This document shows, piece after piece, positions 1,276-62,325 of a stretch of DNA of 64,000 nt (position 1 is the stretch's first letter; every line of letters begins with the position of its first letter). The stretch is from NCBI GenBank assembly GCA_016193315.1, contig JACPSJ010000001.1, positions 21,935 to 85,934 of the forward strand, given 5' to 3'. The position numbers and the translations under genes were made by a program. The stretch is from Candidatus Kerfeldbacteria bacterium (GTDB taxonomy: Bacteria; Patescibacteriota; Patescibacteriia; SBBC01; CAIJZX01). Below the pieces are notes generated by a model, which saw only the letters and a list, made by a program, of their open reading frames with translations, ran no database searches and was not told the origin of the DNA.

Positions 1276-2288
1276 CGTCGCGTCAACAGCTTTACCATAC
1301 CTCGATTGCCGTCGACTTCGACTTGATCACCGTCTTGAAAAACCTGCGTGGCATACTTGGTGCCGACGATACAGACGATCCCAAATTCTCGGGCCACGAT
1401 CGCGGCATGGCACATTGCTCCACCCTCGTCGGTCACAATCGCCGCGGCCCGGCGAGCCGCGGTTACGAAATCCGGAGTCGTCATCGGCGCAACCAAGACA
1501 TCACCCGGCCGAACTTTCCGGAGCTGTGAGTGCTCGAACACGACTTTGACGCGGCCACTCGCTTTTTTCTGTATCACACTTGTCCCGCGGAGAGGGCCCG
1601 ACGAGCCAGCCGCGGCATCAAAGGTGATATTGCGGCGACGGGCAAACGTTTCCAGGCGGAGGTCAGCGAATAATTTCCCGCGATAAAAGATGAAGCCGCG
1701 TTTTCGGCGGTTAATGTCTGGCGGCAGGCGGACTGATTCAACTTCCTGTTTAGTCAGGAGCTGGACTATTGGGGAGAAGCTCGCCGGGAGCTTTTTCTTA
1801 GCCATAGATACGAACGTTTTTTCGCCGACACTCAGCAGCTGATCGTATTGGTGGCGCAATCGTTGTGCCTTTTTAGCCAATGGCGGCGAAATTTGATCAG
1901 GGATAAAGCTGCCGAAAATGTCGGCAAAATCTATCAGTGGCCAGATGCTTAGCAGCAAACTGTAGGCTTTCGAAAAATCTTTGGGATTTGCTCGTTCCGA
2001 TAACTCCAAAAATTGTTGCGCCCGCGTCTCGCATTTCACCAGCATTGAATCGACCGCGTGCCGATGTTTGGAATAGTGCTGCTCGAAATGATCGTAATCT
2101 TGCCGGCGATCGGAAAAGTCGAAGTAGAGTGCCGTCCCGCGGCCGGGCCGGTAGTGAAACAGGGGAGCGAAGAAAATACTGCCACCAAATGCTTTCGGTA
2201 AGATGACGCGTTCCCCGCGATCCCAATTTTGACAGAGCAGGAGGGAGATTGATCGATTTTCGACCTTTCGAAAGTGATGAGGCTTCAC
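1272..2288 (-). CDS. PEP-utilizing enzyme mobile (swivel phosphohistidine) domain protein with a ~240-aa N-terminal domain of unknown function
   Basis: C-terminal TTPDFVTAARRAAAIVTDEGGAMCHAAIVAREFGIVCIVG is the PEP-utilisers His motif; 4-bp overlaps at both ends suggest an operon. Confidence 0.7.
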   Translation of the reverse strand: MKPHHFRKVENRSISLLLCQNWDRGERVILPKAFGGSIFFAPLFHYRPGRGTALYFDFSDRRQDYDHFEQHYSKHRHAVDSMLVKCETRAQQFLELSERANPKDFSKAYSLLLSIWPLIDFADIFGSFIPDQISPPLAKKAQRLRHQYDQLLSVGEKTFVSMAKKKLPASFSPIVQLLTKQEVESVRLPPDINRRKRGFIFYRGKLFADLRLETFARRRNITFDAAAGSSGPLRGTSVIQKKASGRVKVVFEHSQLRKVRPGDVLVAPMTTPDFVTAARRAAAIVTDEGGAMCHAAIVAREFGIVCIVGTKYATQVFQDGDQVEVDGNRGMVKLLTRR

Positions 2289-3778
2289 AATATCTTGACT
2301 ACACCTTTCCCGGCATCAACTTCCACTAGATCTCCATCCTTGAGCACTTTTGTAGCCACTCGGGTGCCGATGACGCACGGCTTCTTCAACTCCCGGGCGA
2401 TGATTGCGGCGTGACAAAGCATACCGCCCTCATCAGTGATGATTGCCTTAGCCCGCTTCATCAGCGGCACGAACTCAGGTGAGGTCATCGAGGTGACGAG
2501 GATTTCACCATTTTGAAAGTACCGTCCTTCGTGAATCGGATTGGTGATCGAACGAACCCGGCCAGTAGCTTTTCCCGAAAAGGCGGTTGAGCCTTGGAGT
2601 AGTTTCGCTTGCGCGATTGCTTCCTCGTGCCAATCTTCTTTGCGCACGCCGCTCAAAACTTGAATTTGCTGGCCCACCTGTTTAATGGTAAAACCCTTCA
2701 CCTTGCGCCCGGCGACGATGCGGCGGATCGAATCGCCGCGAAGTCCAGCTATGATTTCCTCCCGCGACAGCCACCATAAATCATTGGGTTCGATACTGAG
2801 GCGTCGGCTGACCTCGTCGTACAGTGGGGCAGCGTGCTGCCAGTAATCGTGGATAAAGAGTGAATCGAGGTTGCGGTAACCCATCATAACCCGCAGCCAA
2901 TGGATGTGTTGACGGACTCGCGGATAGGTACGGAAGCGGGCGAGGATCTTTCGCACCGTCGTGGCTGCTTGCCGTTCTTGAGTTTGGAGAAGTCGTCGGG
3001 CTCGTGGCACCGATAATCCCCGCGACCGAAGAAATCGTTGTTCATAATCAGCCGGGGTAAACGGCCTATTCGTACGCTCGTTGAAAACGCTATGGCCGAA
3101 GTCGTACCATTGTTGGAAAACTACGTTCTGAATGGCCGCCAGGCGACGCTGGCGCTTGATTCGATGGAGACGATGGATCTGTTGCAGGCGGCGGAGGAAA
3201 GCCATGCGCTCGGCGATGAAAATGGAACGGATGCCGACTTGACATAACTGTCGGTAGACCCGCTCTTGTTCTTCGTCCGTGGCGTCAATCAGAACTTCGC
3301 CAATCTCCTGTCTGACAATCCGTGTCAGCAGGTTCACTAGGTCATAGACGATGTAGTATCCCGCTGAAGCAATCTTGCTAGCTAGATGCAGTACTTCGAA
3401 CTCGCGGCGGAGTTGGTTGGTGGACAACCCCAGGTAAAATTCAGGCCCCTTTCGGAAGATTGCATCGGTCATCCGCCTGAGTTGGCGGTACGAGTCGTGG
3501 AAATACCGATCGAGATATTGGAAATAGCGGTGCTCGCGCCGCAGGCGTTTCCAGATTTTTCCCAAAAAAGCATCTTCGACCTTCCGATCCCAATACAAAT
3601 AGACTTGCCGCTTGTTCGGCCCGTCCATCGATACGTACTTGACCCAATTAGGCAAGTTTCGGTACGGCGCGGCGCGCCAGTTGAGCAACGTCACCTGAAG
3701 CGTCTCCTGCTCATGGAGGACTTCAATGGTCCGAACCATTTTTTCGATGTAGCGCTGGTCGGAAAAGGGACGGTACAT
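2285..3778 (-). CDS. second PEP-utilizing mobile-domain protein with a ~390-aa N-terminal domain of unknown function
   Basis: C-terminal TSPEFVPLMKRAKAIITDEGGMLCHAAIIARELKKPCVIG; paralogous to the 1272..2288 gene. Confidence 0.7.
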   Translation of the reverse strand: MYRPFSDQRYIEKMVRTIEVLHEQETLQVTLLNWRAAPYRNLPNWVKYVSMDGPNKRQVYLYWDRKVEDAFLGKIWKRLRREHRYFQYLDRYFHDSYRQLRRMTDAIFRKGPEFYLGLSTNQLRREFEVLHLASKIASAGYYIVYDLVNLLTRIVRQEIGEVLIDATDEEQERVYRQLCQVGIRSIFIAERMAFLRRLQQIHRLHRIKRQRRLAAIQNVVFQQWYDFGHSVFNERTNRPFTPADYEQRFLRSRGLSVPRARRLLQTQERQAATTVRKILARFRTYPRVRQHIHWLRVMMGYRNLDSLFIHDYWQHAAPLYDEVSRRLSIEPNDLWWLSREEIIAGLRGDSIRRIVAGRKVKGFTIKQVGQQIQVLSGVRKEDWHEEAIAQAKLLQGSTAFSGKATGRVRSITNPIHEGRYFQNGEILVTSMTSPEFVPLMKRAKAIITDEGGMLCHAAIIARELKKPCVIGTRVATKVLKDGDLVEVDAGKGVVKIL

Positions 3779-7079: not shown

Positions 7080-7784
7080 TTATGAATTCCAACCTTTGGC
7101 CGCCAACCCGTTGAAGGCGGCCATCACCTGAGCTTCTTGTTTTGAGGCGCCCTCGCCCGCGGCGATTTGATCGTCATCAATGTACAGGCCGACCAAAAAA
7201 TGCTTGTCATGATCCGGCCCCCATTCTTTCAGCACTTTGTAGGACGGCGTGATGCCGAGAATAGCCTGGCTCATTTCCTGAAACTTGCTCTTGGGATCGA
7301 CGTAGAGCTGTTGTTGCAGGATATCCGGCAGCTTGCTTAAGATCCGGGCCATGATGAACGCCTCGGCCGGCGCCAAGCCGCCGTCGAGAAAGAGGGCACC
7401 AATAATGGCTTCGACCGCGTTGGCGTGAATGTTCTGACGGGCCTTGGAGTTTTTTTCTTTGGCTTCGCCGCGGCTCATCATCAGCCAGTGATCGAGATCG
7501 AGTTCGGCGGCCACCGTGGACAGCGACTTGGCGTTGACCAGACTGGCCCGCCAGTTTGTCAGATCGCCCTCCGGGTTGGGGTAGTGATGGAAGAGGTGCT
7601 GGCTGACGACCAGTTCCAAGACGGCGTCGCCGAGGAATTCCAGCCGCTCGTTGTGCCCGAGCGGAAAATCAGGGTGCTCGTTGAGGTAGGAGCGATGGAC
7701 CAGCGCTTGGCGTAGGAGATCGGGATGTAGAAATTGGTGCTTCAGGATAGTTTGGATTTCGTCGATGTCGGCCATAGCCGTCAT
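7080..7784 (-). CDS. rnc: ribonuclease III
   Basis: RNase III signature [15 protein letters not shown]; dsRBD at the C-terminus. Confidence 0.9.
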
Positions 7785-43025: not shown

Positions 43026-43277
43026 GGTCTTTCTACTACATACTGTAGTACCTTGGGCCGAGTGTCAACCCCGCACCACTTTTTGGTATTCTCACGGCCG
43101 CGGATGCCGCCGACGTCGAAGCCGCCTCTCATTGTATACCAAGAGGCGAATCTGATTGGCGGAAAAGTGGTGCGGGGTGCCCGGCCCCCGGGGCCAGCGC
43201 TATGGCCGGACCGAAAAGCGCTTGTCAAATGGGGTAACCTTGGCTATACTTCGCCTGCTTCGTTTGGTCGACCAGCT

Positions 43278-45143
43278 ATGGCTAAGACTCCCAGCGTCAG
43301 CCCATTGTTCAAGAAGATCCTCGGTTTCTTCGTCTCTTTAATTGTCCTCAGCTTAATCCTGAGCTCGTTCTCCTTGCCCGAGTCGAGAGCCAAGGCCGTC
43401 ACCCTCGGCTTCGTGGTCGAGCAGATCAAAGCCGGCAAGGTGAAGGTGGTCGACATCAACGGCGACCGTCTCGAGGTCACACTCAAGGATGGGACAAAAC
43501 TTATCTCCCGGAAGGAACCAACGGTCGACTGGACCACCGCCGCGACCAATCTGGGCGTTAAGCCAGAGCAGTTGATCGCCGTCACCGGCACGGTCCGTGA
43601 CAACACCACGGCCGCGTTCTGGCTCAATACCTTGCTGCCCATTTTAGTACCAATTCTGTTCGTCGGTGGTTTTATCTGGTTGACGTACCGACAGGTCCAA
43701 GGCCAAAACACCCGAGCCTTGTCCTTTGGTCAGGTGCCGACGAAAGAACCAGAGACAGCGAAGAAGAAACGGATCACTTTTCGTGATGTGGCTGGCGCGG
43801 CGGAGGCAAAGGAAGAGCTCCAGGAGATCGTCGAATTCCTCAAGAACCCCAAACGTTTCACCGACCTCGGGGCGCGAATCCCTAAAGGCGCTCTCCTCGT
43901 TGGCCCACCGGGGACCGGCAAAACCCTGCTGGCAAAGGCGGTGGCTGGCGAGGCCGATGTCCCGTTCTTCAACATCTCCGGTTCAGAATTCGTGGAGATG
44001 TTCGTTGGGGTTGGCGCGTCGAGGGTGCGTGACCTGTTTCGCCGGGCCAAGAAAACCGCGCCGAGTATCGTCTTCATCGATGAAATTGATGCCGTCGGGC
44101 GGCAGCGCGGCGCCGGTTTAGGCGGCGGTCACGACGAACGGGAACAGACGTTGAATCAGATCTTGGTCGAGATGGATGGTTTTGATACCGATACGCACGT
44201 CATCGTCGTCGCGGCCACCAATCGACCAGACACGCTTGATCCAGCTCTGCTCCGGCCGGGGCGATTCGACCGGCGCATCACCATCGACCTGCCAGACATC
44301 AACGAACGGGAAGCGATCCTCAAAGTCCACGCCCAGCAAAAACCGCTCGGCCCGGATGTTAACTTGCGGCGCTTGGGGGAACGGACGGCTGGGTTCTCCG
44401 GTGCTGATCTCGAGAACATGCTGAATGAAGCGGCCATCATCGCTGCCCGACAGCATCGAACCCTGATCACCTTCCTCGACTGCGTCAACGCCATGGAAAA
44501 AGTCCTGCTCGGTCCGGAGCGAAAGTCGAAGGTCATGAGCGAGGAAGAAAAGAAAATCACCGCCTACCACGAAGCCGGACATGCGGTGGTGGCGCATTTC
44601 CTGCCACACACTGACCCGGTTCAGAAAGTCTCGATCATTGCCCGTGGTCGGGCCGGCGGCTTCACCCTCAAGACGCCCGAGCAGGACCGCAGCTACCGCC
44701 GGTACCGCGAGTTCATGTCCGAGTTATCGGTCATGCTAGCTGGTCAATTGGCCGAGCAACTTGTCTTTAATGAAATCTCCACCGGCGCCGCCAACGACCT
44801 GCAAAGCGCGACGCGCCTGGTCCGCCAACTGATCACCCGTTTCGGGATGAGCAAGCTGGGACCGCGGACGTTCGGCGAGCGCGAGGAACTCATCTTTCTC
44901 GGTCGAGAGATCCACGAGCAGCGTGACTATTCGGAAAAAGTGGCGCAAGAGATCGACCGCGAGATTGATCGTCTCCTCGGCCAGGCCCGGCTGGTGGCGG
45001 AACGGATCCTCCGCGATCACCGGTCCGATCTGGACAAGGTGGCCGGAGAATTGCTGGTCAAGGAGACTATTGAACGGGAGGATTTTGAAAAGTTGCTCGG
45101 CCCGAAGCCGACGCCGACCAAGGTCGCGACCGCTCGCACATAG
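43278..45143 (+). CDS. ftsH: ATP-dependent zinc metalloprotease FtsH
   Basis: TM anchor, AAA Walker [19 protein letters not shown], second region of homology, Zn-binding HEAGHAVV. Confidence 0.9.
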
Positions 45144-45189
45144 ACACGACCGCTGATTCCTGCTATAGTTAGGAGGGAAAAACAAAGCC

Positions 45190-46152
45190 ATGCCGTACTT
45201 CTACCGTCGCGAGGTGTTCCAGCAAGCGCTGGATATCATCTGGCGAAAAAAATACCTCTGGTTTCTCGGTTTCTTTGCTGGCCTGGCCGCCCATGGCGGC
45301 GAACCGGATTTGTTGTTCCGCAACACGAATTCACTCCGCTGGCTTCAGGATAGCGTCGCTATTCTCCGCGATGTCGTCCGCGGCGGTCAAGCCGATCAAT
45401 TCCTGGCTAACCTCCGGCTCTTCTTCAACAACTACACGCTCAACGCGGTGGGATACCTGGCCGTTCTGATCCTGATCTTAGTCGTTATCTTGTGGCTGGT
45501 GATCGTTTCCCAATCAGCCATCGTCCGGGTGGTCGGTCGGGCCAGCCAAAAGAAGCAGACTAGTCTATTTGACGGGTTGGCTACGGGGACGGAAAAATTC
45601 TGGTCGCTACTGACCGTCAACGTGGTAACTAAACTGTTCACGTGGGCACTCTGGATCATTGTGGCCGGCATCCCAGCCATCGCTTTTTTTGTTACTGGCC
45701 AGGCCGCCTGGGCCATAACATTCAGTCTTGGCTCGCTCTTGGTCACCCTCCCGATCAGCATCGTCGTCTCCTTCCTGACCAAGTATGCCATCGCCGCCAT
45801 TACGCTTGGCGGAACGGACACCATTGGCGGCCTGCGGCAGGCCTGGAAGATATTCCGCGACAATTGGTTGGTCAGTATTGAGCTGGCCGTGCTCATCTAT
45901 CTGTTCAACTTGGCCGTCGTTTTGGTCGTGGCTGGGGTAACGCTGCTGGTAGTGCAAACAGTCACCTCATTCCGCGAGTTCTTCACGCTCTTAACGGTCC
46001 TCGCCATCGTTCACAGTTTTGTCAGCGCCTTCAGCTATGCGGCTTGGACTACGGTCTATCAAAAGTTACTGATTAGCAAAGGCGAAAGCCAGCTCGGCTA
46101 CTGGACCACGAAGCTGACCAATTTCATCCAACCGAAGCGATCACTAGGATAG
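45190..46152 (+). CDS. hypothetical polytopic membrane protein
   Basis: ~6 TM helices; AGGAGGG RBS. Confidence 0.5.
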   Translation: MPYFYRREVFQQALDIIWRKKYLWFLGFFAGLAAHGGEPDLLFRNTNSLRWLQDSVAILRDVVRGGQADQFLANLRLFFNNYTLNAVGYLAVLILILVVILWLVIVSQSAIVRVVGRASQKKQTSLFDGLATGTEKFWSLLTVNVVTKLFTWALWIIVAGIPAIAFFVTGQAAWAITFSLGSLLVTLPISIVVSFLTKYAIAAITLGGTDTIGGLRQAWKIFRDNWLVSIELAVLIYLFNLAVVLVVAGVTLLVVQTVTSFREFFTLLTVLAIVHSFVSAFSYAAWTTVYQKLLISKGESQLGYWTTKLTNFIQPKRSLG

Positions 46153-46168
46153 GGTTGTCGCGATGATA

Positions 46169-46198
46169 GAACGGTGGTAGAGTGAGACCGTTGTTTTT
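46169..46198 (+). terminator. intrinsic terminator
   Basis: gaacggtggtagagtgagaccgttgttttt. Confidence 0.5.
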
Positions 46199-46315
46199 CC
46201 AATCCTGATGCCCGTGCCCACCGCGCGCCGCTTGCCTGGTCGGTCCTTAGCTCCTCGTAAAGACCGGCGAAGCCGGTCCACGGGGCAGGCAATGTACGTA
46301 CGGTCCCGCCCCGGT

Positions 46316-46387
46316 TCGGTCCCTAGCTCAATGGTAGAGCACTCGTCTTATACACGAGCGGTTGCAGGTTCGAGTCCTGCGGGACCG
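46316..46387 (+). tRNA. tRNA with anticodon TAT (would read AUA; Ile-like), no encoded CCA
   Basis: Cloverleaf: acceptor CGGTCCC/GGGACCG, D-arm GCTC..GAGC, anticodon stem CTCGT/ACGAG, loop CTTATAC, T-arm GCAGG TTCGAGT CCTGC. Confidence 0.6.
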
Positions 46388-46548
46388 AGTTTGGGCGGGA
46401 CAGGTACACGAGCGGTCGCGGGACTGCCCCGAAAACGAGGAACTACGTGACAAGTTGTACGGGACTCGAATCCTGGCGGGCCGACCATGGAAAGGGTGTA
46501 TCGCCTCAGCGCTTAAGGCACCCGGTGTGAAAGATTCAACCGAAAACT

Positions 46549-47574
46549 ATGAAAGCAGTTTTCTTTGAGCGGCCTGGCGGGCTGGAAGTTCTTCGGTACG
46601 GAGATTTCGATGATCCGATTCCGAATGAAGGCGAAGCTTTGGTTCGAGTCAAAGCTGGTGGCCTGAATCGACTGGATATTTGGCTGCGCGAAGACCGGGA
46701 CAACATTCGGAACATACCGATGCCTCACATCCCCGGGTCAGATGTATCGGGCACGGTGGAGAAGATCGTAGGTCAGGCGGGTTTCCGAATCGGTCAGGAC
46801 GTGGTGCTGAATCCGGCCATTCCGTGCGGCCTCTGTCCGCGTTGCAAAAAAGGACAGCCGTGCGAGCTGGTGAAGATATTCGGCGTCAAGAATCAAGGTG
46901 GGTACGCTGAGTACGTGGTAGCACCAATCGCGCAGCTGTATCCAAAACCGCCCCACCTTTCTTTCATCGAAGCTGCGGCATTTCCCCTGACGATGCTGAC
47001 CGCTTGGCACATGCTGGCCGGTCGGGCTCACGTGCAGCCGGGTGAAACGGTCTTTATCTGGGGCGCCTCCGGTGGCCTAGGATCGGCGGCCATTCCTGTA
47101 GCTAGATATCTGGGGGCCAGGATTATCGCCGCGGCCAAGTCTGAAGAACAGGCCCGCCGCATCCGTGAGTTGGGCGTGGATGAAACCGTGGTCTATACGA
47201 GGGATGACGTTGATCAAAAAGTAAAGAGTCTGACACATGGCCAAGGAGTCGATGTCGTCTTTGAAAGTGTCGGTCAGAAGACTTGGCCGACAACGCTGGC
47301 CATGCTTAGACCGTTCGGCCGCGTGGTGATTGCCGGCACCACCACTGGTGACGTGGGGACGCAAGATTTGAGTGATTTGTACGTTCGCCAACTGTCTATG
47401 CTAGGCGCCAGGATGGGCACCAAAGAAGAATTCGAAACGGTCTTGAGATTAATCGCCAGCGGTCACTTGAAACCGATTATTGATCGGACCTTCCCACTCA
47501 GCCAAGCGGCTGAAGCCCAACGAAGGATGGTAGACGGAAAACACATAGGGAAGATCGTTCTAGAAATTCCGTAA
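46549..47574 (+). CDS. zinc-type alcohol dehydrogenase / quinone oxidoreductase (MDR family)
   Basis: GroES-like N-terminus, Rossmann motif FIWGASGGLGSAAI. Confidence 0.85.
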   Translation: MKAVFFERPGGLEVLRYGDFDDPIPNEGEALVRVKAGGLNRLDIWLREDRDNIRNIPMPHIPGSDVSGTVEKIVGQAGFRIGQDVVLNPAIPCGLCPRCKKGQPCELVKIFGVKNQGGYAEYVVAPIAQLYPKPPHLSFIEAAAFPLTMLTAWHMLAGRAHVQPGETVFIWGASGGLGSAAIPVARYLGARIIAAAKSEEQARRIRELGVDETVVYTRDDVDQKVKSLTHGQGVDVVFESVGQKTWPTTLAMLRPFGRVVIAGTTTGDVGTQDLSDLYVRQLSMLGARMGTKEEFETVLRLIASGHLKPIIDRTFPLSQAAEAQRRMVDGKHIGKIVLEIP

Positions 47575-47686
47575 GTCAGGTCTGGCGGGACGCCGGTGAC
47601 CTCGATCCACGTGATTCGGGGCGAAAAGCCTAGCTCGCCTGCCAAGGTCGCTGACAGTGTGATAAACTATAACGAGATCAATTATC

Positions 47687-47938
47687 ATGACCCTGCCGGT
47701 GACGACCAAAACCAAGGTTACCTCGACACTCACCCCGGTCATCATTCTGACGACCGCGGGCAGCCTGCTGGAGCTCCAGACAGTTGGGGTGGCGATGTTG
47801 ATGGCTGTGTCAGCGTTGTTTATTCTCCTGCTGGCGCCGGCACCATCACTGTTCGGCTTGATCTGGCTCTTCAGCGCCGTGCTGATGGTCATCCGCGCGG
47901 CCCAGGGTTTCTTCGCCTGGCAGGCTGGGCTACGCTGA
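47687..47938 (+). CDS. small hydrophobic protein (2 TM)
   Basis: ORF only. Confidence 0.35.
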   Translation: MTLPVTTKTKVTSTLTPVIILTTAGSLLELQTVGVAMLMAVSALFILLLAPAPSLFGLIWLFSAVLMVIRAAQGFFAWQAGLR

Positions 47939-48032
47939 CATTGACGTCCCTGTAACTCGCCGCGACGAATAGAATAGCAGGTTTCACTGCACTGTCGAAT
48001 ACCACTTGAGCCGCCCAAAGGAGGTGGGGTTG

Positions 48033-48290
48033 ATGCCGCTACAGCTCCTTGAGACGTCAGGTCGCGAGGCCGGAGTGCTGATGCCCGACGATGAAGCCTT
48101 CACGCAACTAGGCGTGATGATCAGGCGACGGACTCGTTGGGTCCTGACCAGCTACGCACCGCAACGGGTCAGAGTCGGTGGTCAGCCGGCACCAATCGGC
48201 GTGGCGCGCGGCCTGCGGTCGCAAGACCTGGTCATCATTGGCGATCTGCCGTTCCGGTTTCGTCCGGTCAAGCCGGGCTCAAGACATTAA
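48033..48290 (+). CDS. hypothetical small protein
   Basis: AAGGAGG before the ATG at 48033. Confidence 0.35.
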   Translation: MPLQLLETSGREAGVLMPDDEAFTQLGVMIRRRTRWVLTSYAPQRVRVGGQPAPIGVARGLRSQDLVIIGDLPFRFRPVKPGSRH

Positions 48291-48504
48291 TCTTAGCCCG
48301 GTATTTCTTACTTGAACTATTGGGGTCGGCGTGCTACCCTCCATCGCGCGAGTTTCCTGTACTTTCTGGTTTACGAGTTCGTAGCTCTCGCCCGCTAGCG
48401 CCTTCGGCGCAAGCCGTGGCGAGCGGGCAGCCCGGTTAGACCCGCCCGCCGGCTTCGCCCGATTCTGTCAAATTATCGTCTTGGTTTAAAGAAAAGCTGC
48501 TGTT

Positions 48505-48581: not shown

Positions 48582-48617
48582 AGAGCTTTTCTTACGCCGG
48601 CGAAGCGGGCCGGGGCG

Positions 48618-48665
48618 CTACGTTGACATCGTGAAGGCCAGAGGTTCAAATCCGGGCGTGGTACG
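48618..48665 (+). repeat. degenerate partial copy of the tRNA-Val anticodon/T-arm region
   Basis: cgttgacatcgtgaaggccagaggttcaaatcc versus tRNA cattgacattgtggaggtcagaggttcaaatcc; the T-stem is not complementary. Confidence 0.3.
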
Positions 48666-48690
48666 TAGAACGTGCCGCGCGGACCGGAGG

Positions 48691-49590
48691 ATGGTGGGAG
48701 ATGAGTGGTATACTGTGGACGTGGAACAGGAGGATTTGGGCCGGAATCCCGAACGTCGTGAACGAGAATTCCAGTTTCGAATTGGCCAGCGCACCAGGCC
48801 GAGCGCCCGACACCCGGAGCGAAATGAGGACGCCATACTGGTTGACCAGGAAGCTGGCGTGTTTGCGGTTTTTGATGGCGTCAGTGGCCTGGAAAACGGA
48901 GCTGGCGGATCGGCCGCCCAAATGGCCAAAGAACACATCGCCCGACTGGTTCGAGAAATGCCCAGGCAGATGTCGCTGGTCGATGTCCGAGATTACTTGG
49001 TGTTAGCGGCACACCACACCAACGAAACACTGTGGAAACATCAACGTGAACGCAACCTCGAGGGCCTTGAAACGACGATGACGCTCGGCTGTATCGTTGA
49101 GGAACATGGTTCACGCTGTCTCCTGACCGTTCATGTCGGGGATAGCCGAGCGTATGTATTAAGAGGCCGGTCAACTCTGGAAACGGTCACTCTTGATGAC
49201 AGCTTGATTCGGAGCATGGGTCTCGATGAGGCCGGAATGAAACAGGTGCAGAAGAGGCTCAGCAACGCCCAAACTGCCGCCGGGCTGTCGCCCGAAGAAA
49301 GACGCGCGTTTAGATTTCGGAACCTAATCACTCAGGGACTCGGTTATGAATCGATCGAACCACACACGACCGCTACCGAGATTCAGCCCGGTGATCGCGT
49401 CCTGCTTACGACCGACGGTATCCACGATAATCTGATTCAGGACGAAATGGAAGGAACTCTTAAATCGTCAGCCGACGTCCAGCAATCCGCCGACAACATG
49501 GTTGAGGCCGCCGCGCAACGCAGCGCGGAAAAAGGCGATCGTGCTAACCCGGACGATATGACGACGTTGGTGGTTGAGGTGGTGGAATAA
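48691..49590 (+). CDS. PP2C-family Ser/Thr protein phosphatase
   Basis: PP2C motifs EDAILVDQEAGVFAVFDGVSG, TMTLGCIVEEHG, HVGDSRAYV, LLTTDGIHDNL. Confidence 0.8.
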   Translation: MVGDEWYTVDVEQEDLGRNPERREREFQFRIGQRTRPSARHPERNEDAILVDQEAGVFAVFDGVSGLENGAGGSAAQMAKEHIARLVREMPRQMSLVDVRDYLVLAAHHTNETLWKHQRERNLEGLETTMTLGCIVEEHGSRCLLTVHVGDSRAYVLRGRSTLETVTLDDSLIRSMGLDEAGMKQVQKRLSNAQTAAGLSPEERRAFRFRNLITQGLGYESIEPHTTATEIQPGDRVLLTTDGIHDNLIQDEMEGTLKSSADVQQSADNMVEAAAQRSAEKGDRANPDDMTTLVVEVVE

Positions 49591-57797: not shown

Positions 57798-58116
57798 CGT
57801 TCAGCCGCAGGCCCGCGGCACCACGTTAGCCTCGATTATGTCGGGGCTTTTTTCAAAGTCTTGGACGAAGAGTGGGCTGACCGGCCGGGCCCAAGTGCCT
57901 TGAAATGGACGGCCGATTCTGGTAAAGTAGCGCTGCTCCTGAAGCGCACGGCGGTCACTTGTCCGAGATGCACTGCGTCCCCGCCGTGGCCGATGACGAT
58001 TAGCTCCGCGTAAAGCCCGAAACAAATTCGGGCCACGCGCCGCCGCAGCTAGTCAGAGCGCTCCGCTTATCCCGTACCACTTGTCGCTGCGTTCCTTGGA
58101 TGCGGGGCAGGCATCG

Positions 58117-58191
58117 AGGACGGTTAGCTCAGCGGGAGAGCACTCGGCTTACATCCGAGGGGTCGCAGGTTCGATCCCTGCACCGTCCACC
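58117..58191 (+). tRNA. tRNA-Val (TAC), CCA encoded
   Basis: GGACGGT..anticodon loop CTTACAT..TTCGATC..ACCGTCCACCA. Confidence 0.85.
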
Positions 58192-58306
58192 AAGAAGTCT
58201 GACGGGGTACGCCGAGGAAGTCGCCCCGCCAAAAGGCGGGGCATCGTCCACGGCTTCGGCCGGCGGGTCCGAAAGGCCGTCCCGCCGAATGGCGGGACAC
58301 CGTCCA
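58180..58306 (+). repeat. 10-nt direct repeat (caccgtccac) of the tRNA-Val 3' end, flanking a 107-nt segment made of two GC hairpins
   Basis: caccgtccac at 58180..58189 and 58297..58306; between them cgccccgccaaaaggcggggc and gtcccgccgaatggcgggac. Confidence 0.45.
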
Positions 58307-58318
58307 CTAAAGCAAACC

Positions 58319-58598: not shown

Positions 58599-58635
58599 GG
58601 GGTGTAGCTCAGCGGCAGAGTCCCGCTCCATATAT
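58599..58635 (+). repeat. tRNA 5'-half-like fragment (acceptor plus D-arm) followed by the palindrome ccatatatgg
   Basis: ggggtgtagctcagcggcagag resembles a tRNA acceptor and D-arm, abutting tRNA-Ala. Confidence 0.3.
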
Positions 58636-60462: not shown

Positions 60463-60548
60463 GATCGCACAGTGCCGCGGTAGCTCAGTGGTAGAGCGCA
60501 GGCCTGCCCGGCGGAGCCGGGTCCGGCTCTGCCGGAAAGAACCTGGCC
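60463..60548 (+). other. tRNA-Phe-like 5' half (acceptor, D-arm, 5' anticodon stem) followed by a ~42-nt GC-rich insert. Its first 18 nt form the outer inverted repeat
   Basis: GCCGCGGTAGCTCAGTGGTAGAGCGCAGGCCTG then cccggcggagccgggtccggctctgccggaaagaacctggcc; compare intact tRNA-Phe GCCTGGGTAGCTCAGTGGTAGAGCGCAGCCCTG. Confidence 0.45.
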
Positions 60549-60706: not shown

Positions 60707-60916
60707 GGCGAGAACGGAATGAATGAGGTGCGGGGTTCTGACCCGCGGCACTGTGCGATCTTGGTAGCGAAGTGGGTCGAGCCGGTCTCGCGAAGCGAGA
60801 GCGACAGAACTGCTTCTGTCGCGGCCGGCGAGACGGGCAATCCCATGTTCCGAAGGAACGGGATTGCCCCGGAAGAGCGCCGGGCACGTAAAGGCACGCT
60901 TCGCGTCTCCACGTGC

Positions 60917-61729: not shown

Positions 61730-61861
61730 CGCGAGCCGCGGAATGGTAATCGCTAGCTCAATTGGGTCCGGCGAAGGGACGTATTACGTCCCGAAGCCGG
61801 ACGGGCAGAAGCGATCCCGCCGTACGGCGGGAGAGCGATCGGCGAGTTGCCAGTGGCAAGT

Positions 61862-61932
61862 CGCCGCTGCCCAGGAAGAGCAATTGCCTCTTAAGCAATG
61901 GGTTGGAGGTTCGAATCCTAGGCTGGTCACCA
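61862..61932 (+). repeat. degenerate tRNA-Lys(CTT)-like sequence (pseudo-tRNA)
   Basis: ...GCAATTGCCTCTTAAGCAATGGGTTGGAGGTTCGAATCCTAGGCTGGTCACCA has the anticodon and T-loop, but the D-arm/acceptor and T-stem are disrupted. Confidence 0.3.
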
Positions 61933-62325
61933 GCATTTTCACACGCAAGAAGCGCTCGTAGAAAAACTCATCATGGCAGAGCCAGATCCGGCGCCGCCGG
62001 AAAATTGACAACGATCGCGGCGGAACCGCCGGCGGATTTCTAAGGAGCGGCCTGCCCTGAGCCTGCCGAATGGGTCGAACCCTTTTCAAAATAGTTCACC
62101 AGCGGTGGCGCTTGAGGTTAACTCAATCGGGCCCGCGCCCGGCGGATCCGTATGTAACGCGGGGGCATTCTGCCAGACTTGACGTTTTTCCGGGATGATG
62201 TAGTATTGGGCGCGGGTATTCGTTTATTAGACAGATGAACAAGCTGGAGGGAGCTGCCACCAGGGTTGTTGATGTTAGGTTCCACGCCCGGTCAGGCGGT
62301 GTTGTTCTCGTGAACCGGACGTTCT

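What the first reader, a model, noticed from the sequence alone, without database searches (positions are those of the whole stretch)
46300..46440. tRNA with TAT anticodon embedded in a long processing stem and followed by a degenerate partial copy
The cloverleaf at 46316..46387 has anticodon loop CTTATAC. UAU would decode AUA (Ile), whereas most bacteria use a lysidine-modified CAU tRNA. The gene is enclosed by the complementary pair gtacggtcccgcccc (5') / gggcgggacaggtac (3'). 46400..46440 repeats part of it (acacgagcggtcgcggg...). Further on (46470..46500) is a T-arm/acceptor-like gggactcgaatcctggcgggccgacca.
Basis: seen in the sequence. Interest (0 to 1): 0.5.

Follow-up and report, generated by a model that had tools for sequence, protein, structure and literature searches.

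The report
Nested tRNA-Ile(UAU) gene in CPR bacterium
This is a genuine isoleucine tRNA with a UAU anticodon in an uncultivated Candidatus Kerfeldbacteria (CPR) bacterium, and the "stem" and "partial copies" around it appear to be wreckage of older copies of the same gene that were split in the anticodon loop when a new, inverted-repeat-flanked copy was inserted, a pattern that recurs in this group of bacteria.

Summary
Window 46317..46388 is a well-formed tRNA-Ile(UAU): ARAGORN calls it and Rfam scores it 71 bits. The contig comes from a Candidatus Kerfeldbacteria (Patescibacteria/CPR) MAG.

This tRNA is not an oddity in that clade. It sits at the same place (ftsH, DUF7847, tRNA-Ile(UAU), tRNA-Val) in every relative that could be checked. 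Tens of further CPR-type tRNA-Ile(UAU) genes turned up in metagenome contigs.

The flanking stem is not special to this gene. All 7 tRNA genes in the window have complementary leader and trailer sequences.

The partial copies are remnants of older tRNA-Ile genes. One 3' remnant starts exactly at anticodon position 36, directly after the right arm of the stem.

Cleaner cases show the pattern:
- An intact tRNA plus inverted repeats lies inside an older copy of the same tRNA that is split at 35/36 (L036, L041, L064, L093, L012).
- L008 and L173 are an empty-site/filled-site pair.
- The window's own allele is itself a broken middle copy in L173.

Best reading: tRNA cassettes repeatedly insert into, and replace, the resident tRNA gene. 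No recombinase was found. Whether tilS is absent could not be tested.

The parts
46317..46388 (+). Intact tRNA-Ile(UAU) gene (innermost copy): C1-G72, A73, U12-A23, C29-G41, loop CUUAUAC, no encoded CCA.
   Evidence: ARAGORN. Rfam 71.2 bits. 65.7 bits, E=1e-19 against an HMM of CPR tRNA-Ile(UAU). The same allele occurs in L173 as a disrupted copy, with 33 of 35 nt of the 5' half identical.
46298..46316 (+). Left arm of the inverted repeat (leader): GTAC GGTCCCGCCCC GGTT. It extends the acceptor stem.
   Evidence: Minimum-free-energy fold. Inverted repeat I1. Resembles the cassette leader CCCCGCCCTGGT in L173.
46389..46404 (+). Right arm of the inverted repeat (trailer): GTTT GGGCGGGAC AGG. It ends directly at the start of the 3' remnant.
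   Evidence: The right-end motif GGGCGGGACAGG|TAC resembles GCGGGCAGG|TAC in L021 and L095 and GGCAGGCGGG|TAC in L041.
46405..46423 (+). 3' remnant of an older tRNA-Ile copy (level 2), starting exactly at anticodon position 36: TAC ACGAG CGGTC GCGGG A.
   Evidence: Direct repeat D2, 16 of 18. BLAST 12 of 12, e=0.003. The variable region CGGTC matches the L008 type rather than the inner copy's CGGTT.
46281..46288 (+). Left arm of a second, outer inverted repeat (CGGGGCAG). It lies within the motif ACGGGGCAGG|CA(A)T, which elsewhere forms the right end of anticodon-loop inserts in tRNA-Val genes.
   Evidence: Pairs with 46424-46431 in the fold. The same 11-mer occurs at 58103 before tRNA-Val(tac) and in L095 and L008.
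46424..46431 (+). Right arm of the second inverted repeat (CTGCCCCG).
   Evidence: Fold.
46240..46258 (+). 5' remnant of the outermost decayed tRNA-Ile: acceptor 5' strand TCGGTCC, TT, D-stem AGCTC, then anticodon-stem 5' strand CTCGT. The D-loop is deleted.
   Evidence: Direct repeat D1. BLAST 13 of 14. Pairs with 46477-46486 (I3) and 46435-46445 (I5).
46262..46278 (+). GC-rich hairpin GACCGGCGAAGCCGGTC inside the insert. Similar hairpins accompany other tRNA remnants in this genome.
   Evidence: Fold. Related copies at 48445-48461(-) and 48597-48613.
46435..46439 (+). ACGAG: the anticodon-stem 3' strand of the outermost decayed copy.
   Evidence: Inverted repeat I5. Fold.
46460..46487 (+). 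3' end of the outermost decayed tRNA-Ile: degenerate T-arm, acceptor 3' strand CGGGCCG, A73, and an encoded CCA.
   Evidence: nhmmer HMM positions 51-73, E=1.2. 95% identity over 20 nt to the L012 7932-7951 fragment. Complementary to 46240-46246.

Best explanation
The gene at 46317..46388 is the working tRNA-Ile(UAU) of a Candidatus Kerfeldbacteria (CPR) bacterium. It decodes the rare AUA codon.

It sits at the ancestral tRNA-Ile locus downstream of ftsH, but it is not the original copy. It arrived as a short cassette. The cassette consists of a GC-rich leader, the tRNA, and a trailer complementary to the leader, so the two arms prolong the acceptor stem.

The cassette was inserted into the anticodon loop of the resident tRNA-Ile gene, between positions 35 and 36. 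That killed the resident copy and replaced its function. This happened more than once, so older copies survive as decaying half-genes nested around the live one, like Russian dolls.

Shown here: the tRNA, its conserved synteny, the nested remnants, the 35/36 junction, and the empty-site versus filled-site pair in relatives.

Inferred: that insertion is an active, site- or structure-specific process, that the cassettes move between lineages, and the enzyme responsible, which is unknown. The leader/trailer helix may additionally help release the inner tRNA from a transcript that carries homologous outer halves.
For: 1. The tRNA is real. A73 is found in 75 of 75 family members. C1-G72 (15 of 75), a missing CCA (49 of 75) and C38 (56 of 75) all fall within the family's range.

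2. Organism and synteny: the neighbouring protein is 100% identical to a Ca. Kerfeldbacteria MAG protein. tRNA-Ile(tat) follows the DUF7847 gene in L008, L010, L012, L174 and L175. It follows ftsH in the distant CPR loci L036, L064, L082 and L093.

3. AUA is in use: 24 of 11470 codons, in 14 of 23 genes.

4. Clean nests: L036, L041/L044, L064, L093, L012 (two levels) and L095 have 5' half, inverted repeat, intact tRNA, inverted repeat, 3' half. Removing the inserts in silico restores an ARAGORN-detectable tRNA in L036, L041 and L064, and in L093 once three loop bases are supplied.

5. Junction position: 14 of 19 upstream partial copies end at tRNA positions 33-38, and 7 of 18 downstream copies start at 29-36. 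The window's remnant starts at position 36, abutting the right arm.

6. Insertion polymorphism: L008 has the GGGCGGG-type tRNA-Ile intact. L173 has the same leader and an 82%-identical neighbouring protein, but there the gene is broken after CTTA by two successive cassettes. The middle cassette is the window's allele.

7. Independent origin of copies: by my reading of the sequences printed, inner and outer acceptor stems differ by 1-4 fully compensated pairs. Both were therefore functional genes before the insertion.

8. Shared insert ends: CTTA|CCCGCCTGCC...GCGGGCAGG|TAC in L021 and L095, and GGGCGGGACAGG|TAC in the window.

9. Generality within the window: all 7 tRNAs have leader/trailer duplexes below -12 kcal/mol, against 8.5% of 236 other tRNAs. 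Val(gac), Val(tac), Ala, Phe and Lys also carry remnants.
Against: - No recombinase, transposase or homing endonuclease lies near any nest.
- Inverted-repeat sequences differ between tRNA species, so a single transposase-binding end is not evident.
- No consistent target-site duplication is seen.
- In the window's Ile locus the outer copies are heavily decayed. ARAGORN finds no tRNA after in-silico repair.
- Part of the upstream sequence (46259-46312) resembles a decayed tRNA-Val remnant of L008 rather than a tRNA-Ile half, so the exact order of events here is uncertain.
- The nest survey used loci retrieved with a tRNA-Ile(UAU) pattern, so the frequencies are not genome-wide.
- Expression, aminoacylation and U34 modification are untested.
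Confidence: 0.65

Rival explanations
1. The leader/trailer helix is a selected pre-tRNA processing or protection structure, for example a double-strand-specific RNase site. The nearby tRNA-like pieces are unrelated debris. This is compatible with the cassette model as an added function.
For: All 7 tRNAs in the window have strong helices continuous with the acceptor stem. These often pair across the encoded CCA, with different sequences but the same geometry. tRNA-Leu has an 11-bp extension with no detectable remnants. L174's tRNA-Ile has 13 of 14 complementary flanks and no visible outer copy.
Against: The orthologous tRNA-Ile genes in L008, L010 and L012 have no significant helix (-8.4, -8.4 and -2.6 kcal/mol). 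It is therefore not required for this tRNA. Remnants abut the helix arms at position 36 here and at 35/36 in the clean nests. No orthologous covariation could be tested, because only identical copies of the window were found.
Confidence: 0.2
2. The fragments are ordinary att-site scars. Integrase-bearing islands integrated into the tRNA gene, duplicated its 3' part, and were later deleted.
For: Integration into tRNA genes, including the anticodon loop, with duplicated 3' segments is well known (general knowledge; tRNA fragments from integrated elements are discussed in PMC9897764). In L012 a 263-aa ORF lies between tRNA-Ile and a 3' fragment. In L095 4.3 kb lies between the inner tRNA-Ile and a right end plus 3' half. 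The Ile-Val spacer holds extra genes in the window (ADH plus 2 small ORFs) but is only 70-71 nt in L010 and L174.
Against: Classical integration duplicates only the 3' part. Here 5' halves pile up upstream in mirror order with 3' halves downstream, and a complete tRNA with inverted-repeat flanks lies between them. No integrase was found in the window or next to the nests.
Confidence: 0.1
3. The inserts are introns and the outer tRNA is still functional. The whole insert, inner tRNA included, is removed from the transcript and the outer halves are ligated.
For: [quoted passage not shown] Several outer genes are perfect cloverleaves once the inserts are removed. Conserved structured inserts also occupy D- and T-loops of outer copies.
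Against: No group I intron or any other Rfam family was found in the window or in 13 nest loci. Position 35 is A rather than the U that normally precedes a group I 5' splice site. Many outer copies have broken stems or deletions: L041's T-stem, L012 level 2, and the window's copies. The inner tRNA would be redundant.
Confidence: 0.04
4. It is a Y RNA-like (YrlA-type) non-coding RNA: a tRNA-like module on a long stem that binds a Ro protein.
For: Weak Rfam match to Deinococcus_Y_RNA over 46303-46404 (22.3 bits, E=0.14). The architecture is similar, with a stem carrying a tRNA-like domain.
Against: The score is far below the gathering score of 80. The cloverleaf is complete, with a normal anticodon arm (71 bits as tRNA). 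No TROVE/Ro protein was found among the 30 ORFs scanned, which include all ORFs of at least 400 aa. The gene is syntenic with ordinary tRNA-Ile genes.
Confidence: 0.01

Closest known systems
tRNA-Ile2(UAU) of bacteria lacking tilS (Mycoplasma mobile; also Bifidobacterium and Neorickettsia; PMC3575796)
   Same: It is a bacterial tRNA with a genomically encoded UAU anticodon that reads AUA in place of the lysidine-modified CAU tRNA. A37 and A73 are present.
   Different: The phylum differs (CPR/Patescibacteria), and here the gene is widespread and linked to ftsH. C1-G72 occurs in a fifth of family members. Absence of tilS, the IleRS type and the state of U34 were not tested.
Integrative elements that target tRNA genes and restore them (anticodon-loop, T-loop and 3'-end sublocations; general knowledge, see also PMC9897764)
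   Same: The tRNA gene is the insertion target, the crossover lies in the anticodon loop, function is preserved, and leftover tRNA fragments mark past events.
   Different: Here the insert carries a complete tRNA gene with inverted-repeat flanks. Both halves of the old gene remain and are nested. The insert can be as short as about 100 nt, and no integrase is present.
[quoted passage not shown]
   Same: Same phylum and the same unusual insertion point in the anticodon loop.
   Different: There is no group I core (Rfam negative). Position 35 is A, not U. The insert contains a tRNA gene, and many interrupted genes have decayed.
Archaeal split and multi-intron tRNA genes (Nanoarchaeum split tRNAs, Thermoproteales introns; PMC4033280, PMC4090602, titles and abstracts only)
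   Same: A GC-rich sequence after the 5' half is complementary to a sequence before the 3' half. Short structured inserts occur in the D, anticodon and T loops.
   Different: This is a bacterial genome. No splicing endonuclease is known for it. The outer copies are degenerate and a full tRNA lies inside.
E. coli tyrT-associated rtT repeats (Rfam RF00391)
   Same: Partial tRNA 3' copies are repeated downstream of a tRNA gene. There is a weak Rfam hit (15.2 bits).
   Different: The arrangement here is nested rather than tandem, and there is no real sequence or structure match (gathering score 45).

Membership tests
tRNA (Rfam RF00005) | Cloverleaf scoring above the family's gathering score. | tested here: met
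   71.2 bits against 29, model positions 1-71. ARAGORN also calls it.
tRNA-Ile(UAU), the AUA decoder | Anticodon UAU in a 7-nt loop with U33 and A37. | tested here: met
   The loop is CTTATAC.
tRNA-Ile(UAU), the AUA decoder | Bacterial tRNA-Ile identity elements known from E. coli (A73, U12-A23, C29-G41; from memory of the literature, not re-read here). | tested here: met
   A73, T12-A23 and C29-G41 can be read directly from the sequence (alignment). A73 is present in 75 of 75 family members. A38 is replaced by C38, as in 56 of 75 members.
tRNA-Ile(UAU), the AUA decoder | Membership of a conserved orthologous family of tRNA-Ile(UAU) genes. | tested here: met
   65.7 bits, E=1e-19 against an HMM built from 90 unique sequences. 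Syntenic in 5 or more Kerfeldbacteria contigs. The identical anticodon arm occurs in 5 Patescibacteria species genomes.
tilS-independent AUA decoding system | Absence of tilS and of tRNA-Ile(CAU) from the genome, and an IleRS adapted to UAU. | not testable with these tools
   Only the 64-kb window is held. No PF01171 hit among the 30 ORFs scanned. tilS is not upstream of ftsH in the window, L008, L010, L012 or L175. That is only a hint.
tRNA-targeting integrative element (integrase type) | An integrase gene inside the element, next to the tRNA. | tested here: not met
   No integrase or recombinase Pfam hit in the window's 30 ORFs or in ORFs beside nests in L095, L036, L041, L064, L082 and L093.
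tRNA-targeting integrative element (integrase type) | Only the 3' part of the tRNA is duplicated, as direct repeats at the two ends of the element. | tested here: not met
   A complete inner tRNA plus both outer halves are present.
Group I intron in a tRNA anticodon loop | Conserved catalytic core detectable by the covariance model, with U preceding the 5' splice site. | tested here: not met
   No Intron_gpI hit in the window or in 13 nest loci. The base before the insert is A35.
Bacterial Y RNA (YrlA / Deinococcus Y RNA) | Score above the Rfam gathering score, and a linked rsr (TROVE) gene. | tested here: not met
   22.3 bits against 80. No TROVE protein found.
Nested tRNA cassette (pattern defined in this report) | An intact tRNA flanked by mutually complementary arms, with a remnant of a cognate tRNA starting at position 36 directly after the right arm. 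| tested here: met
   Window 46298-46316 / 46389-46404 / 46405-46423. The same layout occurs in L036, L041, L021, L012 and L093.
Nested tRNA cassette (pattern defined in this report) | A matching 5' half ending at position 35 directly before the left arm. | tested here: inconclusive
   In the window the sequence before the left arm (…GGCAGGCAATGTAC) is not a recognisable 5' half. The only 5' remnant lies further out (46240-46258) and has lost its D-loop.

The most novel reading that the evidence does not exclude
CPR bacteria may harbour a previously undescribed class of tiny, non-autonomous mobile cassettes. Each would be a complete tRNA gene held between complementary GC-rich arms. Each would insert at position 35/36 of the anticodon loop of the resident gene for the same tRNA. 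The cassette would escape counter-selection because it brings its own replacement, and it would spread between lineages. Repeated hits would produce Russian-doll tRNA genes. Related cargo-less hairpin elements would colonise the D, anticodon and T loops of the dead copies.
Probability: 0.4. Interest if true: 0.85.

Novelty: new variant of a known kind. Interest (0 to 1): 0.66.

Why it matters
Three reasons.

1. **AUA decoding.** tRNA-Ile(UAU) appears to be a standard, ftsH-linked gene across CPR lineages. If tilS is absent, a very large branch of bacteria would read AUA without lysidine. That bears on IleRS evolution and on how AUA and AUG are kept apart.

2. **tRNA gene turnover.** The nested copies point to a way of replacing tRNA genes in place, by insertion into the anticodon loop together with a spare copy. 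This would be a neat strategy for a selfish element. It would also be a route for horizontal exchange of tRNA alleles in bacteria with very small genomes.

3. **Annotation.** Half-genes and structured inserts of this kind can mislead tRNA annotation and break metagenome assemblies. L173 ends inside its nest.

The insertion point coincides with the 35/36 hotspot of Patescibacteria group I introns. This suggests that position is unusually accessible in this phylum.

Tried and rejected
- **Y RNA/YrlA reading.** Weak Rfam hit only and no Ro gene. Rejected.
- **Phage origin of the tRNA.** 39 viral contigs carry a tRNA(UAU) with the same D-arm, but none is of the CPR type (at most 51 of 72 identical). 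Rejected.
- **Group I intron or any other known RNA in the inserts.** Nothing found.
- **Sigma-70 promoter or intrinsic terminator around the gene.** None found.
- **One transposase-type terminal repeat for all cassettes.** TCCCGCNCC occurs 10 times against 5.2 expected. Paired CCCGCNCC...GGNGCGGG sites flank tRNA-Ala, tRNA-Phe and L012's tRNA-Val, but also two places without a tRNA. Suggestive, not conclusive.
- **A decayed tRNA at 46165-46225.** It has T-loop-like TTCCAATCC and CCCACC, but nhmmer gave no hit. Left as speculation.
- **Closer relatives for a covariation test of the stem.** Only identical copies exist (Logan SRR12113419 and SRR12113425). The next relative has 66% protein identity.
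- **Recombinase near nests.** None.
- **Literature.** No paper describing nested tRNA genes in bacteria was found in the library searched.
- **tilS in CPR.** No paper in the library connects them.

Full report
**1. Observation**

The sequence at 46300-46500 is as described.
- ARAGORN reports tRNA-Ile(tat) at 46316..46389.
- Rfam's tRNA model matches 46317..46388 end to end with 71.2 bits against a gathering score of 29.
- The anticodon loop is CTTATAC. Pair 1-72 is C-G, the discriminator is A, and no CCA is encoded.
- The flanking arms GTACGGTCCCGCCCC (46298-46312) and GGGCGGGACAGGTAC (46393-46407) pair in the minimum-free-energy fold and prolong the acceptor stem (z=-4.3).
- The leader/trailer duplex alone is -26.4 kcal/mol, z=-3.25 against shuffled trailers.
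- 46405-46422 repeats tRNA positions 36-53 at 16 of 18 bases.
- The T-arm/acceptor/CCA-like piece lies at 46460-46487.
- The whole 46230-46495 stretch folds into four concentric long-range helices around the cloverleaf (z=-5.0).

**2. Organism and gene context**

The window is an ordinary bacterial chromosome segment. Pfam scans of 30 ORFs found gyrA, smc, S1, ftsH, type IV pilus genes and others. They found no TROVE/Ro, TilS or integrase protein.

The protein encoded just upstream (DUF7847, 45190..46152) is 100% identical to a protein of a Candidatus Kerfeldbacteria MAG. The organism is therefore a member of the CPR/Patescibacteria. Identical copies of the region occur in two independent Logan assemblies. 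This argues against misassembly.

**3. The tRNA is a normal member of a large family**

- The exact 25-nt anticodon arm occurs in 5 GTDB species genomes, all Patescibacteria.
Part of these are other tRNA(UAU) types rather than the CPR type.
- In Kerfeldbacteria relatives a tRNA-Ile(tat) follows the DUF7847 gene and is usually followed by tRNA-Val(gac). These relatives have 42-66% protein identity to the window's DUF7847 protein.
- In distant CPR contigs it follows ftsH directly.
- Among 75 unique well-formed family members, A73 is invariant, C1-G72 occurs in 15, CCA is not encoded in 49, and C38 occurs in 56. The window gene's oddities are therefore family traits.
- AUA makes up 2.1 per 1000 codons and occurs in 14 of 23 window genes, so a decoder is needed.
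- Known precedents for UAU decoders are bacteria without tilS (PMC3575796).
- Whether this genome lacks tilS could not be tested.

**4. The stem is not specific to this gene**

All seven tRNA genes in the window have complementary leaders and trailers. The mean duplex is -18.9 kcal/mol and all seven are below -12. Only 8.5% of 236 other tRNAs, mostly from the retrieved contigs, reach that level.

The orthologous tRNA-Ile genes of L008, L010 and L012 have no such helix.

**5. What the partial copies are**

Several related loci show the pattern cleanly.

- **L036.** A perfect outer tRNA-Ile(UAU) is interrupted between A35 and T36. The insert is 31 nt, an intact inner tRNA-Ile(UAU), then 62 nt. 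The flanks of the inner tRNA are long inverted repeats.
- **Same layout elsewhere.** L041/L044, L064, L045 and L021 (Ile), L093 (Val), and twice over in L012's tRNA-Val.
- **In-silico repair.** Deleting the inserts restores ARAGORN-detectable tRNAs in L036, L041 and L064, and in L093 once three loop bases are supplied.
- **Junction position.** Across 249 non-redundant tRNAs, 14 of 19 upstream partial copies end at positions 33-38. Of 18 downstream copies, 7 start at 29-36.
- **Separate histories.** Reading the sequences, inner and outer acceptor stems differ by one to four pairs, always compensated. Both copies had therefore been functional genes with separate histories.
- **Shared insert ends.** They run CTTA|CCCGCCTGCC…GCGGGCAGG|TAC in L021 and L095. 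L041 has …GGCAGGCGGG|TAC and the window has …GGGCGGGACAGG|TAC.

The strongest single piece of evidence is a pair of close relatives. Their neighbouring proteins are 82% identical and the tRNA leader is the same.
- L008 has the GGGCGGG-type tRNA-Ile intact.
- L173 has that same gene broken after CTTA by a cassette: CCCCACACCAAGT followed by a CGGTCCC-type tRNA.
- That cassette's tRNA is itself broken after CTTA by a second cassette: CCCCGCCCTGGT followed by a CGGCCTG-type tRNA.
- The middle copy in L173 is the window's allele, with 33 of 35 nt of the 5' half identical.

**6. Reading of the window locus**

| Level | Coordinates | Content |
|---|---|---|
| Innermost | 46317-46388 | Live tRNA-Ile(UAU), between arms 46298-46316 and 46389-46404 |
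| Level 2 | 46405-46423 | Only a 3' remnant, starting at position 36 |
| Second inverted repeat | 46281-46288 / 46424-46431 | CGGGGCAG / CTGCCCCG |
| Outermost, 5' part | 46240-46258 | Acceptor strand, D-stem and CTCGT |
| Outermost, 3' part | 46435-46439, 46460-46487 | ACGAG, then degenerate T-arm, CGGGCCG, A, CCA |

The outermost 3' end is 95% identical over 20 nt to a tRNA-Ile 3' fragment in L012.

The reading is not clean. ARAGORN does not recover the outer copy after in-silico repair. The stretch 46259-46312 resembles a decayed tRNA-Val remnant seen in L008 (…ACGGGGCAGG|CA(A)T…CCCGCCC). The order of events cannot be fully reconstructed.

**7. The same litter surrounds the other tRNA genes in the window**

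- **Val(gac).** It has an outer 5' piece at 48375-48387 and a 3' piece at 48623-48653.
- **Val(tac).** It lies in an older copy (58000-58307). That copy carries a 42-nt hairpin insert at 35/36 (58070-58111).
- **Ala.** It is preceded by a 5' fragment (58601-58620) and flanked by TCCCGCTCC…GTGCGGGA.
- **Phe.** It lies inside an older Phe gene, with the 5' half ending at 60506, the 3' acceptor strand at 60743-60749, and an 18-nt perfect inverted repeat.
- **Lys.** It is followed by a decayed Lys gene with a D-loop insert of about 105 nt.

**8. Mechanism**

The best-supported account is repeated insertion of a tRNA-bearing, inverted-repeat-flanked cassette into the anticodon loop of the resident cognate gene. 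The outer halves then decay.

- Insertion itself is shown by the L008/L173 pair.
- Site preference is shown by the junction statistics.
- Transfer between lineages is inferred from the compensated acceptor differences.
- The enzyme is unknown. No recombinase lies nearby, the arms differ between tRNA species, and there is no consistent target duplication.
- The helix may also serve RNA processing. That is a compatible rival rather than an exclusive one.

Classical integrase scars, an intron reading and a Y RNA reading were considered. They fit less well, for the reasons given under the rival explanations.

**9. Comparison with the known**

- The tRNA itself is a new member of a known kind, a UAU AUA-decoder.
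- The nested arrangement resembles tRNA-targeted integrative elements.
- It shares its 35/36 site with the Patescibacteria group I introns (PMC13011429).
- It fails the defining tests of both: no integrase with partial-tRNA repeats, and no group I core.
- Searches of the paper library found no description of nested bacterial tRNA genes. That library is incomplete.

**10. Verdict**

The interesting part is different from what was proposed. The UAU anticodon is ordinary for this clade. The stem and the copies point to a recurrent, apparently undescribed mode of tRNA gene replacement in CPR bacteria.

Noticed in passing
window 48505, 55681(-), 58118, 58636, 60632, 61654 (with 46317): Every tRNA gene in the window has a leader complementary to its trailer. 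The pairing often crosses the encoded CCA and extends the acceptor stem by about 8-13 bp. All 7 are below -12 kcal/mol, against 8.5% of 236 other tRNAs.
   Followed up: partly
window 61754-61932; L021 about 1500-1645(-): A decayed tRNA-Lys(CUU) lies downstream of the live one and carries a structured insert of about 105 nt in its D-loop. The insert is homologous (76% identity overall, with long identical runs) to one at the same D-loop position (TAGCTCAATTGG|…|GAAGAGCA) in the outer tRNA-Ile of L021. It therefore looks like a conserved D-loop element shared by different tRNAs and genomes. No Rfam family matches it.
   Followed up: partly
window 58070-58111; L095 about 3308-3347(-); L008 about 7125-7170: A hairpin element of about 40 nt, (T/C)CCCGTAC…CGGGGCAGG, sits exactly between A35 and C36 of decayed tRNA-Val genes. 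It looks like a cassette without cargo. Its right-end motif also occurs at window 46280-46289.
   Followed up: partly
L041 about 2100-2350; L045; L064; window 46424-46459 and 48388-48432: Outer (dead) tRNA copies often carry extra hairpin inserts of 20-35 nt in the D-loop and T-loop. All three loops of the cloverleaf therefore seem to attract small palindromic elements.
   Followed up: no
window 43069-43177: A 15-bp perfect inverted repeat, CCCCGCACCACTTTT…AAAAGTGGTGCGGGG, encloses about 79 nt in the intergenic region upstream of ftsH. Its ends resemble the tRNA cassette arms, but no tRNA lies inside. A similar pair occurs at 62132-62216.
   Followed up: no
window 43278-46388; L036, L064, L082, L093: tRNA-Ile(UAU) lies directly or nearly directly downstream of ftsH in distant CPR lineages. 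In many other bacteria tilS is linked to ftsH (from memory). No tilS precedes ftsH in the Kerfeldbacteria contigs examined.
   Followed up: partly
window 46549-48290, compared with L010 7100-7171 and L174: tRNA-Ile and tRNA-Val are 70-71 nt apart in L010 and L174. In the window they are separated by a zinc-type alcohol dehydrogenase and two small ORFs. In L012 a 263-aa putative lipoprotein lies between them, and in L095 4.3 kb of hypothetical genes. The spacer is a hotspot for gene insertion.
   Followed up: partly
L173 3151-3382 (contig end): The NCBI contig ends inside the innermost tRNA of a three-level nest. Such nests probably break assemblies and hide from tRNA annotation.
   Followed up: no
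window 46262-46278, 48445-48461(-), 48597-48613, 61766-61802; L036, L095: GC-rich hairpins closed by a GCGAAGC-like or CGAAG loop recur next to tRNA remnants.
   Followed up: no
window 43053-45143 and 48631-49590: The mechanical ORF starts are probably too far upstream. The ftsH ORF (696 aa from TTG) is called as 621 aa in the identical Logan contig. The PP2C ORF's GTG start overlaps a tRNA-Val remnant.
   Followed up: no
L095 1559-3076(-): A CCA-adding enzyme gene (PolyA_pol head plus HD domains) lies next to the tRNA-Val nest in a Kerfeldbacteria-like contig. This fits the many tRNA genes in this group that do not encode CCA.
   Followed up: no
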